This document shows, piece after piece, positions 61,833 through 63,437 of a stretch of DNA of 64,000 bases (its first letter is position 1; every line of letters starts with the position of its first letter). The notes under the pieces were generated by a model, which saw only the letters and a program-made list of their open reading frames with translations, was not told the DNA's origin and did not search any database. The stretch is from positions 64,001 through 128,000 of IMG/VR virus record IMGVR_UViG_3300035660_000001, one strand, 5' to 3'. The position numbers and the translations under genes were made by a program. The DNA comes from a virus.

Positions 61833-62792
61833 ATGGTTAAGAAGCAGTCCACGAAAGAGAAGGCAGAGCTGAGGAAGCGGCTCAAGGAGGAGTTCGCCAA
61901 CAAGCATCCTGGGGTGAAGAGCGGGATGACTTCGGATGAAGTGTTCCGGATGGACACCGGACAGCTCTGGTACGTCGACAAGACCAAGACCTTTATGTTC
62001 AACCAGACCAGATCGCACGTCGAGAACAGCTTCCTGGTTAGGTCTCCACGCTATCCGGAGGTTCTTGAGTCGCGCCGGAAGGAAAACTGCGATGACAAGG
62101 CAGAGATGGAGAGGGCTAAGAAGGAATCGGCCAAGCTAGTCAAGGAGGTTCTGGCCGAAGTTCTTGGAATGACGGAAGAGGAAGCCCAGGCTCATGTTTA
62201 CAACATGGCCAAGGAAGAAGTGGAGTCTACTAGGCATCCCGCCTACAACGCGATGGTGTGGGTGATGGGAGATCTTCTCAAGCAGTGCGATGCCTACATG
62301 GAGACTCTCCCGATCTGGGGGACAAAGACCAATCCGGGGTGGCTTCGGGATGTCAAGGGGATCGGGACGAAGCTCGGAGCCAAGCTCCTCTGCATCGTGA
62401 AGGACTACCAAAGGTTCAAGCGGCCGTCCAGCCTGTGGGCTTATTTCGGGGTGGGGGATGCCAGCAAGGAGAAGCGTGTCCACGGGACCCAGTTACATCA
62501 CAGCCCGAAGGGCCGTTCCCTGATGTATATCATGGCCGAGTCCTTTATCAAGCAGGGCACTGAACCCTACAGGACGATCTACGATCAGAGGAAGGAGCAC
62601 ACCCGGGTCACCCATCCGGAGTGGCATGGCATCCGGGAGGAGGGCGAGAAGAACATGCACCCGAAGCATGCCGATCGGGACGCTCGCAGGGTCATGATGA
62701 AGGAGTTCCTAAAGGACTTCTGGTTGGAATCCTGGAAGGCCGACGGTAAGGTTGCTCCGAGTAAGCCGTTCGAGAAAGCCGAAGCCGCTTGA
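61833..62792 (+). CDS. tasA: TIGR-associated (Tas) Nop/IS110-C-terminal-domain protein lacking a nuclease domain (TasA-like)
   Basis: WLRDVKGIG..LGAKLL....DYQRF.RPSSLWAYFG, HSPKGRSLMY..AESFIKQ, YR.IYD.RK and H..R.ARR.MMK.FL.DFW resemble the IS110 C-terminal/Nop RNA-binding fold. No N-terminal DEDD RuvC or HNH motif is visible. The array starts at its stop codon. Confidence 0.75.
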   Translation: MVKKQSTKEKAELRKRLKEEFANKHPGVKSGMTSDEVFRMDTGQLWYVDKTKTFMFNQTRSHVENSFLVRSPRYPEVLESRRKENCDDKAEMERAKKESAKLVKEVLAEVLGMTEEEAQAHVYNMAKEEVESTRHPAYNAMVWVMGDLLKQCDAYMETLPIWGTKTNPGWLRDVKGIGTKLGAKLLCIVKDYQRFKRPSSLWAYFGVGDASKEKRVHGTQLHHSPKGRSLMYIMAESFIKQGTEPYRTIYDQRKEHTRVTHPEWHGIREEGEKNMHPKHADRDARRVMMKEFLKDFWLESWKADGKVAPSKPFEKAEAA

Positions 62793-63437
62793 GGGTAAAG
62801 CCCAGTTAAATGCTGAATTCTATCGTTGGAGTGAACTTGCCCTCGCAAGGCTTTCGAGAAGGTGTCGTAGGGGGCAAAGCCCATTTTCCCTATCGGATTC
62901 CAGTGCCAGGGTGAACTTGCCCCTTACAAATATGGTCGGTGAGAATATAATCCAGTGGGTGCCTGAATTCCATAGACTTGATGTTTCGATCCGACCGAGA
63001 GAATAAGGGACCATATAAAGAATGAAACCCATTTTAGTAGTGTCCCGATGAAGGGCGTGGACCAAGTTTATAGTGAAACCCACCTACCGACTGATCTCGC
63101 CCTGTAGTTTAATTCAGGCGGTGAAAACCATCTTCCGGATGAAACCTAAGCCCCACTTGTAACCCGCCCGATCAGATATGCAGTCGGCGAAGAACCATAG
63201 CACCTTTGAATCCCATTAAACGATTGTTCTAAGCCGACTATAGGGTAGATCGAGAAGCAAAGCCCAGGTTTAAATAGAATTCCACGCCTGTAATGAGCTT
63301 GCTTCTTATGGATACGGTCGGTGAGGATTAAACCATCAAATGGGTGAATTCCACTGGTAAGTTGTCCGATCCGACCGGACGAGAAGGGCGGGTTCAGAGG
63401 CTAAATGAATCCCACCTAAGTATTATTCTCGCCCTTC
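62791..63437 (+). ncRNA. Stem-loop TIGR (tandem interspaced guide RNA) array, 10 units
   Basis: Ten hairpin-enclosed units of consensus CCA-N9-TGAAWYCCA-N9-TG with all-different 9-nt spacers. Confidence 0.85.

What the first reader, a model, noticed from the sequence alone, without database searches (positions are those of the whole stretch)
62791..63437. Array units fall into scaffold families with variable stems but fixed spacer geometry
Seen: the enclosing stems are not one repeat. U1/U2/U8 share G(T/C)AAAGCCCA...TGA(A/G)CTTGC. U3/U9 share GGTCGGTGAG.AT...CGATCCGACC. U5/U10 share AAGGGCG...TCTCGCCCT. U4 has only a 5-bp GGGAC/GTCCC stem. Spacer lengths stay at 9 nt, except one extra base in U2. 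The loop motif drifts (TGAATTCCA, TGAAACCCA, TGAATCCCA, AGAATTCCA). The spacers are about 43% GC by hand count (78/180), lower than the surrounding coding DNA appears to be. Inference: the array grew by unit duplication followed by spacer replacement. Selection acts on structure rather than repeat sequence, so CRISPR and tandem-repeat finders would miss it. The targets may be AT-richer DNA such as promoters or another genome.
Basis: partly seen in the sequence, partly recalled or inferred. Interest (0 to 1): 0.75.

Follow-up and report, generated by a model that had tools for sequence, protein, structure and literature searches.

The report
Phage stem-loop TIGR-TasA guide array
The ten hairpin units are guide RNAs of a TIGR-Tas system, an RNA-guided DNA-binding system first described in 2025, sitting just after the nuclease-free TasA gene of a 160-kb phage; it is a clean new example of a known kind, not a new kind.

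Summary
Window 62791-63437 holds ten units of the form variable stem, CCA, 9-nt spacer, 9-nt loop (TGAAnnCCA), 9-nt spacer, TG, stem. The core pattern matches 10 times in the window against 0.25 expected.

The gene just upstream (61833-62792) is a Tas protein. It matches solved TasR and TasH by sequence (E 2e-13 and 3e-12) and by fold. It is all-helical, so it is a nuclease-free TasA. The locus is therefore a stem-loop TIGR array (Faure 2025; Xu 2026 preprint), in a complete 160,139-bp tailed phage. This scan has already found the same kind on other DNA.

- **Duplication and spacer replacement:** supported, but in multi-unit blocks. Duplicated scaffolds are 76-89% identical while their spacers are 19-25% identical, which is random.
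- **Stem covariation:** shown in family a, but weakly in family b.
- **Scaffold families:** they recur in the same order in a phage whose TasA is 55% identical.
- **Nearest other relatives:** they carry classical 36-nt dual-repeat arrays with the same loop, and a C-terminal Tyr/His processing tail that this TasA lacks.
- **Spacers:** 43% GC against 57% for the genome.
- **Targets:** none found in the phage's own genome; the natural targets remain unknown.

The parts
60884..60912 (+). Consensus sigma-70-type promoter (TTGACA-17-TATAAT, 12 of 12), just after a terminator-like hairpin at 60833-60864. It is the likely start of the transcript that runs through tasA and the array.
   Evidence: That it drives the array is inferred. 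No terminator-like site was found between tasA and the genes after the array.
61833..62792 (+). tasA: a 319-aa TIGR-associated protein with a coiled-coil and a Nop-type C-terminal domain. It has no nuclease domain and no C-terminal Tyr/His processing tail.
   Evidence: - PDB by sequence: TaTasR 9mty E 2.1e-13, SpTasH E 2.9e-12.
- Foldseek: the top 10 hits are all TasR or TasH.
- AF2 model: pLDDT 88.5, all helices.
- Pfam Transposase_20 E 3.1e-5.
- The tail ends at ...KPFEKAEAA.
62791..62844 (+). Unit U1 (scaffold family a). Spacer A 62805-62813, loop 62814-62822, spacer B 62823-62831. An outer clamp helix, 62769-62780 with 62849-62860, uses the last codons of tasA.
   Evidence: inverted repeat I2.
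62867..62927 (+). Unit U2 (family a). Spacer A 62884-62893 (10 nt), loop 62894-62902 (CGGATTCCA, box D reads CG), spacer B 62903-62911.
   Evidence: 11-bp stem GTAGGGGGCAA/TTGCCCCTTAC.
62933..62997 (+). Unit U3 (family b). Spacer A 62955-62963, loop 62964-62972, spacer B 62973-62981.
63007..63046 (+). Unit U4 (family c, 5-bp stem GGGAC/GTCCC). Spacer A 63014-63022, loop 63023-63031, spacer B 63032-63040.
63052..63103 (+). Unit U5 (family c variant). Spacer A 63065-63073, loop 63074-63082, spacer B 63083-63091.
   Evidence: Its best scaffold match in L006 is c3.
63117..63168 (+). Unit U6 (family e). Spacer A 63131-63139, loop 63140-63148, spacer B 63149-63157.
   Evidence: The family assignment has a narrow margin.
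63182..63239 (+). Unit U7 (b-like or g-like scaffold). Spacer A 63198-63206, loop 63207-63215, spacer B 63216-63224.
   Evidence: (inverted repeat I1).
63252..63307 (+). Unit U8 (family a). Spacer A 63267-63275, loop 63276-63284 (AGAATTCCA), spacer B 63285-63293.
63315..63377 (+). Unit U9 (family b). Spacer A 63336-63344, loop 63345-63353, spacer B 63354-63362.
63383..63437 (+). Unit U10 (family c variant; its boxes read TCA and TA). Spacer A 63397-63405, loop 63406-63414, spacer B 63415-63423.

Best explanation
This is a stem-loop TIGR (tandem interspaced guide RNA) array of ten tigRNA units. It lies directly downstream of its effector gene tasA, in a complete 160-kb tailed phage.

**Shown here**
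- The protein is a Tas-family Nop-domain protein without a nuclease domain.
- Each unit has the published tigRNA anatomy: box C (CCA), 9-nt spacer A, box D (UG) starting a 9-nt loop that ends in a second CCA, 9-nt spacer B, then UG. The whole is closed by a unit-specific stem.

**Inferred from the published systems**
- tasA and the array are transcribed together, and each unit folds into its hairpin.
- A TasA dimer grips the two box C/D pairs, one at the stem base and one at the loop, and leaves the two spacers exposed.
- Units are cut out by a host RNase, because this TasA lacks the Tyr/His tail that dual-repeat Tas proteins use for self-processing.
- The RNP binds an 18-bp DNA site that reads 5'-[spacer B][reverse complement of spacer A]-3'. 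One spacer pairs with each strand.
- With no nuclease, binding blocks transcription or replication rather than cutting.

**My odds**
- About 0.93 that it is a TIGR-TasA system.
- About 0.6 that its role is RNA-guided repression by binding alone.
- About 0.8 that the targets lie outside the phage, in the host or a competing element.

**Growth.** The array grew by duplication of multi-unit blocks, followed by wholesale exchange of the spacers.
For: **Protein**
- PDB sequence hits to TaTasR (E 2.1e-13, residues 148-305) and SpTasH (E 2.9e-12).
- The Foldseek top 10 are all TasR or TasH (E 6.7e-6 to 5.9e-4). IS621, Nop5 and Prp31 follow.
- The model has pLDDT 88.5 and pTM 0.80, with helices only.

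**Array**
- 10 pattern matches against 0.25 expected.
- Box C before spacer A is CCA in 9 of 10 units, and before spacer B in 8 of 10. Box D after spacer A is TG in 8 of 10, and after spacer B in 9 of 10.
- CCA and UG are the boxes named for ParTasR tigRNA (10.64898/2026.07.30.739390, passages).
- The loop consensus UGAAACCCA equals the loop of TaTasR tigRNA1 (Faure Table S3).
- Each unit's own arms pair better than arms from other families: mean -20.7 against -11.8 kcal/mol. In 18 of 26 units the own partner beats every other-family partner.
- Covariation in family a: 88% of cells paired and 6 of 11 pairs compensatory.

**Fit to the published description.** Stem-loop arrays are described as having two 8-12-nt spacers flanked by box C/D, variable palindromic stems, and sometimes a conserved 9-nt loop (PMC12045711 section 9; Xu et al.).

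**Relatives**
- L006 and L007 (TasA 55% identical) have the same kind of array downstream of tas.
- Nine loci at 36-42% identity have 36-nt dual-repeat arrays with the same loop.

**Tail.** All 5 proteins of this subclade end 25-27 residues after the last helix. Of the next 48 relatives, 44 match a Pro-Tyr/Trp...His tail pattern; the other 4 differ at the Pro-Tyr position but keep the His. The Tyr-to-His spacing of 7 residues is the same as SpTasH Y289/H296 (PMC13421893, passages).

**Growth.**

**Function of nuclease-free TasA as a repressor.** Xu et al. preprint, results and discussion.
Against: - No RNA data exist for this phage, so expression, processing and unit boundaries are unverified.
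- No target was identified.
- U2 (CG for UG, one extra base) and U10 (TCA and TA) depart from the box code and may be weak or decaying guides.
- In the minimum-energy fold of the whole 711-nt stretch, the stems of U3, U6 and U10 are displaced by long-range pairings.
- The CUU motif that Xu et al. report at stem bases and processing sites is not general here. By my reading of the sequences, CTT sits in the 3' arm only of U1, U2 and U8.
- Covariation in family b is weak: 4 of 12 pairs, and 7 of 500 shuffles reach that count.
- The repressor role is carried over from other TasA proteins. It was not tested on this one.
Confidence: 0.9

Rival explanations
1. The array is a decaying relic, or is merely structured intergenic RNA (hairpins that punctuate or stabilise the operon's mRNA), and no longer guides anything.
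For: - U2 and U10 have off-consensus boxes.
- No target was found in the phage's own genome or in three viral-contig scans.
- The loops drift between units.
Against: - The box letters and the 9-9-9 geometry are kept in nearly all units while the spacers are fully diverged.
- Stems keep pairing through compensatory changes.
- tasA is intact and well conserved.
- The same architecture is kept in L006 and L007.
Confidence: 0.05
2. The guides regulate the phage's own genes, that is, RNA-guided control of the viral life cycle, rather than foreign DNA.
For: - Xu et al. list regulation of the viral life cycle among the possible roles.
- The array sits in an operon of small early-type genes behind a strong promoter.
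Against: - The genome is complete: direct terminal repeats and CheckV 100%.
- In the experimentally established geometry, no guide has a site with 2 or fewer mismatches.
- The single 3-mismatch hit lies in the array itself.
- There are 8 hits at 4 mismatches against 7.1 for shuffled spacers.
- Single mismatches mostly abolish activity in ParTasR.
Confidence: 0.03
3. It is an IS110-type element. On this reading the protein is an RNA-guided recombinase and the hairpins are bridge-RNA-like.
For: - Pfam Transposase_20 hit at E 3.1e-5.
- PHROG family annotated as transposase at E 1.7e-27.
- IS621 appears among the fold hits at E 0.13.
Against: - There is no DEDD/RuvC-like N-terminal domain; the model is all-helical.
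- Tas structures score far better than IS621.
- Ten tandem two-spacer units are present, not one two-loop bridge RNA.
- The genome holds a single copy.
Confidence: 0.01
4. The units are box C/D-like guides for RNA modification rather than for DNA binding.
For: The unit layout (C, guide, D', C', guide, D) mirrors archaeal box C/D sRNAs, and the Nop domain is shared with them.
Against: - The PHROG scan of the window's 62 ORFs named no fibrillarin or L7Ae partner.
- The closest solved relatives bind DNA.
- Published TasA proteins bind DNA.
Confidence: 0.01

Closest known systems
Stem-loop TIGR arrays with TasA: PlTasA from a Peromyscus leucopus gut contig (Faure et al. 2025, PMC12045711; Guan et al. 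preprint 10.64898/2026.08.11.744272), and BlTasA and MbTasA (Xu et al. preprint 10.64898/2026.09.09.750476)
   Same: - A nuclease-free Nop-domain effector.
- Tandem hairpin units, each with two ~9-nt spacers flanked by box C/D.
- Stems that vary within one array.
- No Tyr/His processing tail.
- Carried by a phage.
   Different: - The boxes here are CCA/UG, as in dual-repeat tigRNAs. They are not the CUU/UG reported for PateTasR.
- The 9-nt loop is a conserved repeat identical to the TaTasR loop.
- The stems fall into about five scaffold families kept in a fixed order.
Dual-repeat TIGR arrays: TaTasR, ParTasR, SpTasH, and the sister clade found here (L008-L014, L030, L031)
   Same: - The same loop repeat, UGAAACCCA.
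- The same CCA/UG boxes and 9-nt spacers.
- The nearest protein relatives outside the subclade, at 36-42% identity.
   Different: - Their 9-nt edge repeat (TGTGAATCA in L014) is replaced here by a unit-specific hairpin of 5-11 bp plus a linker, so the period is 51-79 nt instead of 36.
- Their proteins keep the C-terminal Tyr/His tail, and this one has lost it.
- TaTasR, ParTasR and SpTasH carry nucleases.
Archaeal box C/D sRNAs with Nop5
   Same: - Two guides per RNA, each between a C-type and a D-type box.
- Bound by a dimeric Nop-domain protein.
   Different: - They guide RNA methylation with fibrillarin and L7Ae through K-turns.
- Here there are no such partners, and the expected target is DNA.
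CRISPR arrays
   Same: Tandem guide units with variable spacers next to the effector gene.
   Different: - Split 9+9-nt spacers that pair with opposite DNA strands.
- No constant long repeat and no PAM.
- No Cas1 in the genome.

Membership tests
TIGR-Tas system | An effector with the Tas-type Nop domain (coiled-coil plus C-terminal RNA-binding domain). | tested here: met
   - PDB sequence hits: TaTasR E 2.1e-13, SpTasH E 2.9e-12.
- The Foldseek top 10 are all Tas structures.
TIGR-Tas system | [quoted passage not shown] | tested here: met
   - Ten units begin at the tasA stop codon.
- Spacers are 9 nt in 19 of 20.
- CCA is kept at 17 of 20 box C positions and TG at 17 of 20 box D positions.
Stem-loop class of TIGR arrays | Variable but palindromic flanks form a stem around each spacer pair, in place of a constant edge repeat. 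| tested here: met
   - Enclosing stems in 10 of 10 units.
- A unit's own arms beat other-family arms.
- Compensatory changes in family a.
Stem-loop class of TIGR arrays | The Tas protein lacks the C-terminal Tyr/His pre-tigRNA processing loop. | tested here: met
   The protein ends at ...KPFEKAEAA. All 5 subclade proteins are truncated here, whereas the relatives carry KPYGVEIxGHH....
Stem-loop class of TIGR arrays | A conserved CUU motif at the stem base that marks the processing boundary (Xu et al. preprint). | tested here: not met
   By my reading of the sequences, CTT sits in the 3' arm only of U1, U2 and U8. Box C here is CCA, the dual-repeat type.
TasA subtype | No HNH or RuvC nuclease domain N-terminal to the Nop domain. 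| tested here: met
   - The AF2 model is helical throughout; DSSP shows no strands of 3 or more residues.
- No nuclease family appears in the Pfam scan.
TIGR-Tas system | [quoted passage not shown] | not testable with these tools
   Only the probable source DNA run holds this sequence.
TIGR-Tas system | The tandem spacers direct binding to DNA, one spacer per strand. | not testable with these tools
   The target geometry was taken from Faure Table S3. No natural target was identified.
IS110 RNA-guided recombinase | An N-terminal DEDD RuvC-like catalytic domain and a single bridge RNA. | tested here: not met
   The N-terminus is all-helical, and there are ten tandem units instead of one bridge RNA.

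The most novel reading that the evidence does not exclude
The array is not a string of arbitrary hairpins. It is an ordered set of about five mutually non-complementary scaffold types (a, b, c, e, g) that is conserved between phages whose TasA proteins are only 55% identical.

Arrays grow by duplicating the whole multi-unit block. Afterwards the 9-nt spacers, or the whole 27-nt spacer-loop-spacer core, are exchanged in place by a dedicated but unknown mechanism, while stems and linkers stay 76-89% identical.

The different stems of neighbouring units would keep the 3' arm of one unit from pairing with the 5' arm of the next.

This lineage would also record a switch from a dual-repeat to a stem-loop architecture, coupled to loss of the self-processing tail.
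Probability: 0.4. Interest if true: 0.6.

Novelty: new member of a known kind. Interest (0 to 1): 0.35.

Why it matters
TIGR-Tas systems are recent, and two questions are stated as open in the 2025 paper and the 2026 preprint: how arrays gain spacers, and what the natural targets are. This locus bears on both.

- **A complete genome.** It sits in a complete phage genome, so self-targeting can be excluded rather than left open.
- **Duplicate blocks.** Together with L006, it offers duplicated blocks in which the scaffold is conserved and the spacers are randomised. That pattern argues for in-place spacer exchange rather than point mutation.
- **Position in the family.** It lies next to a dual-repeat clade with the same loop repeat. 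This gives a natural pair for asking how stems replaced edge repeats and why the processing tail was lost.

None of this changes the classification. It is one more of the roughly 2,559 stem-loop arrays already catalogued.

Tried and rejected
- **RNAalifold on the ten units** gave 0 pairs, because the stems sit at different distances from the core in different families. I therefore tested pairing family by family and by cross-pairing.
- **Covariance model.** One consensus structure cannot hold stems that are out of register, and a motif-plus-stem scan already found the related arrays.
- **Rfam:** only HOTTIP_2 at 17.5 bits against a gathering score of 80, which is spurious.
- **tRNA or tmRNA:** none.
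- **Extra units elsewhere in the 160-kb genome:** one candidate outside the array, at the level seen in shuffles (0-5 per shuffle).
- **Own-genome targets:** none.
- **Exact 18-mer targets in viral contigs.**
  - U1: 0 hits. U7: 0 hits. U9 in the wrong geometry, as a control: 0 hits.
  - U9 in the right geometry: 13 contigs of 30-38% GC.
  - Those matches fall in two unrelated genes on different strands.
  - In four of those genomes, fetched whole, no other guide has a convincing site. The near-matches are mostly the AT-rich U4, plus one for U7, and total 9 at 2-3 mismatches against 2.6 for shuffled spacers.
  - I treat this as probably coincidence.
- **Genome-contig scan:** one distant hit only.
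- **Cultured phage relatives:** none close, so no host can be named.
- **Genes upstream of tas** are not conserved in L007.
- **Reverse transcriptase and Cas1:** absent from the genome.
- **RNA runs:** no RNA holder listed.
- **Faure Table S1** (held cut): it contains the dual-repeat sister clade but none of this subclade's motifs. Because the file is cut, this does not show that the subclade is absent from their set.
- **Literature on how TIGR arrays grow:** one search, read as a listing only, found nothing on it.
- **Tree:** the careful search did not finish, so the tree I cite is the quick one.
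Full report
**What is there**

Window 62791-63437 is the 645-nt stretch between the stop codon of a 319-aa ORF (61833-62792) and the ribosome-binding site of the next small ORF (63462). It holds ten units on the + strand. Each unit reads: 5' stem arm, CCA, 9 nt, a 9-nt loop of the type TGAAnnCCA, 9 nt, TG, 3' stem arm.

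The fixed-geometry pattern CCA-N9-TGAANNCCA-N9-TG, with up to one mismatch, occurs 10 times in the window, 8 of them in the array. Dinucleotide-preserving shuffles give 0.25 +/- 0.46, and none of 100 shuffles reaches 10. U2 and U10 depart further from the pattern and were found with a looser expression.

The one correction is that the spacers add up to 181 nt, not 180 (78 are G or C, 43.1%).

**The stems**

With the spacer-loop-spacer core held single-stranded, every unit closes with its own stem (-9.5 to -20.1 kcal/mol).

Over the 26 distinct units of this array and the related array L006:
- a unit's own arms pair at a mean of -20.7 kcal/mol;
- arms taken from other families pair at -11.8 +/- 3.6 kcal/mol;
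- in 18 of 26 units the own partner beats every other-family partner.

The 24-nt flanks used for that test include parts of neighbouring units, which blurs the control.

Covariation within families:
- **Family a** (U1, U2, U8 and four L006 units): 88% of cells pair and 6 of 11 pairs carry changes on both sides. No shuffle of 500 reaches the covariation score, and slid controls pair at 38-53%.
- **Family b:** much weaker, with 4 of 12 pairs and 7 of 500 shuffles reaching that count.

RNAalifold on all ten units finds nothing, because the stems lie at different distances from the core. In the minimum-energy fold of the whole stretch, seven of ten units keep their own stem (z = -3.0).

**The neighbouring gene**

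The 319-aa protein hits Pfam Transposase_20 weakly (E 3.1e-5). Against solved structures it matches:
- the TIGR effector TaTasR by sequence (9mty, E 2.1e-13, residues 148-305);
- SpTasH by sequence (E 2.9e-12).

An AlphaFold model built on 36 homologues has pLDDT 88.5 and is helical throughout. Its ten best Foldseek matches in the PDB are all TasR or TasH chains, followed by the IS621 recombinase, Nop5 and Prp31. There is no strand-containing domain that could be an HNH or RuvC nuclease, so this is a TasA.

**Identification**

Faure et al. (PMC12045711; sections 4, 6, 9, 10 and 24 read) describe TIGR arrays in two forms:
- stem-loop arrays, in which variable palindromic sequences replace the edge repeat. 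The loop may stay a conserved 9-mer, which the authors call a possible intermediate stage.

Xu et al. (preprint 10.64898/2026.09.09.750476; results and discussion read) catalogue 2,559 stem-loop arrays. They show that stem-loop Tas proteins lack the C-terminal Tyr/His processing loop, and that TasA and nuclease-dead TasR act as RNA-guided transcriptional repressors.

The locus here fits this description feature by feature. Its boxes are CCA and UG, the ones named for ParTasR tigRNA. Its loop consensus UGAAACCCA is the loop of TaTasR tigRNA1. The one published stem-loop feature that is not met is the CUU motif at the stem base.

**Context**

The genome is a complete virus record of 160,139 bp with direct terminal repeats. 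The window encodes baseplate wedge proteins, collagen-like tail fibres, a ligase and methyltransferases.

A perfect sigma-70-type promoter (60884-60912) follows a terminator-like hairpin. It precedes two small ORFs, tasA, the array and further small ORFs. No terminator-like site follows the array. Co-transcription is inferred from this layout. There is one tasA copy, no reverse transcriptase and no Cas1.

**Relatives**

- **The protein family.** Against a library of representative proteins clustered at 50% identity, the family has 1,252 members at E <= 0.001, but only 8 at E <= 1e-30.
- **The subclade.** Four proteins are 55-65% identical to this TasA.
- **L006 and L007.** These two metagenome contigs encode such proteins and carry stem-loop arrays downstream of tas. 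Their 9 shared units have identical spacers, so they are one population.
- **Dual-repeat neighbours.** Nine further loci at 36-42% identity (L008-L014, L030, L031) carry classical dual-repeat arrays of period 36. The loop repeat is TGAAACCCA, and in L014 the edge repeat is TGTGAATCA.
- **Tree.** In a quick maximum-likelihood tree of 70 proteins, the five subclade proteins are monophyletic (SH-aLRT 99). They form one of three lineages of a supported clade (95). The other two lineages have the tail, and the order among the three is unresolved. The careful search did not finish.
- **The tail.** All five subclade proteins stop 25-27 residues after the last helix. Of the next 48 relatives, 44 match a Pro-Tyr/Trp...His pattern, typically KPYGVEIxGHH; the other 4 differ at the Pro-Tyr position but keep the His. 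Tyr and His are 7 residues apart, the same spacing as the catalytic Y289 and H296 of SpTasH (PMC13421893, passages).
- **Inference.** Because the sister lineages have the tail, its loss here is most simply derived. It coincides with the change from edge repeat to hairpin. The direction of that change is an inference.

**How the array grew**

L006 has 16 units arranged as a five-unit block (scaffold types a, b, c, e, g) repeated three times, plus one more a unit.

| Comparison | Scaffold (stems + linkers) | Loops | Spacers |
|---|---|---|---|
| L006 block copies 0 and 1 | 188/212 | 36/45 | 17/90 |
| L006 block copies 0 and 2 | 168/206 | 36/45 | 17/90 |
| L006 block copies 1 and 2 | 177/207 | 32/45 | 21/90 |
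| Window U2-U3 against U8-U9 | 58/76 | 16/18 | 9/36 |

The spacer identities are what unrelated sequence would give. In the window, a 35-nt repeat also spans the junction between units.

Point mutation cannot randomise the spacers while leaving the linkers about 80% identical. The spacers, or the 27-nt cores, must therefore have been replaced.

The window's units find their best scaffold matches in L006 as follows:
- U1, U2 and U8 match a;
- U3, U7 and U9 match b;
- U4, U5 and U10 match c;
- U6 matches e. U4 and U6 match by narrow margins.

The order in the window is a, a, b, c, c, e, b/g, a, b, c, which follows the L006 cycle. No spacer is shared between the two arrays: 0 of 1,280 comparisons have 2 or fewer mismatches.

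'Structure not sequence' needs the qualification that the scaffold sequence families themselves persist between phages.

One reason for unlike neighbours could be to stop the 3' arm of one unit from pairing with the 5' arm of the next. This is my hypothesis and was not tested.

**Targets**

Faure Table S3 gives tigRNA1 and its synthetic target. From these, the target strand reads spacer A followed by the reverse complement of spacer B. The other strand therefore reads spacer B followed by the reverse complement of spacer A.

- **Own genome.** In this geometry no guide has a site with 2 or fewer mismatches. The single 3-mismatch hit lies in the array itself. There are 8 hits at 4 mismatches against 7.1 for shuffled spacers.
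- **Viral contigs.** Exact composite 18-mers were scanned for three guides.
  - U1 and U7 gave nothing.
  - U9 gave 13 contigs of 30-38% GC, while its swapped-order control gave none.
  - The 13 matches fall in two unrelated genes on different strands: a PHROG 461 protein of unknown function and a CobS-like AAA ATPase.
  - The phage has no homologue of the first of these genes.
  - In four of these genomes, fetched whole, no other guide has a convincing site.
  - I regard the U9 matches as probably coincidental and record them as unexplained.
- **Spacer GC.** It is 43% here and 44% in L006, against 57-58% in their genomes. In the AT-rich dual-repeat relatives, spacer GC (30-40%) tracks the locus GC (28-39%). 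AT-richer targets would explain this, and so would a constraint that keeps spacers unstructured. The data do not decide between the two.

**Verdict**

This is a genuine stem-loop TIGR-TasA locus, a known kind of which thousands are catalogued. This scan has already reported the kind on other genomes.

Its modest added value lies in four things:
- the complete phage genome without self-targets;
- the clean evidence for block duplication with in-place spacer exchange;
- the conserved order of scaffold families;
- its position beside a dual-repeat clade with the same loop repeat.

Noticed in passing
window 61021-61548, 61545-61811, 63462-63686: The three small ORFs around tasA all end in a similar C-terminal tail: ...GFGVIGEL, ...PFGVEGEI and ...AFGVIGSL. 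The first two also share an N-terminal VGxxVxV...G motif and look like paralogues.
   Followed up: no
window 60833-60912: A 14-bp terminator-like hairpin is followed directly by a perfect TTGACA-17-TATAAT promoter. This marks a sharp transcription-unit boundary upstream of the tasA operon.
   Followed up: no
L035-L047 (viral contigs); window 63336-63362: The composite 18-mer target of unit U9 occurs exactly in 13 AT-rich viral contigs, in two unrelated genes. Three other 18-mers, including the swapped-order control, gave 0 hits. It is probably coincidence, but it stays unexplained.
   Followed up: partly
window 62933-62997 and 63315-63377: In U3 and U9 the helix GGUCGG/CCGACC is followed by UGA opposite GAU. 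That could form U-U plus tandem G-A pairs, a motif reminiscent of K-turn or box C/D cores. In L006 the same scaffold family is fully Watson-Crick there.
   Followed up: no
window 62769-62780 with 62849-62860: U1 has an extra outer helix whose 5' arm is made of the last codons of tasA, so the first guide hairpin overlaps the coding sequence and the stop codon.
   Followed up: no
L006 1770-1870 and 2256-2290: Three spacers of the related array share GGGAATA: TGGGAATAA, TAGGGAATA and TGGGAATAC. Several guides may therefore aim at one site or at a repeated motif.
   Followed up: no
phage collection, for example Mycobacterium phage Bethlehem NC_009878.1 46040-46582: 80 of the 84 phage records with a tblastn match to this TasA are mycobacteriophages. 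The matches are about 31% identical over the Nop domain, and the genes are annotated as hypothetical protein or transposase. Whether they have guide arrays was not examined.
   Followed up: no
window 62923-62951: A promoter-like site (CTTACA-17-TATAAT, 10 of 12) lies inside the array between U2 and U3. It could be an internal start or chance.
   Followed up: no
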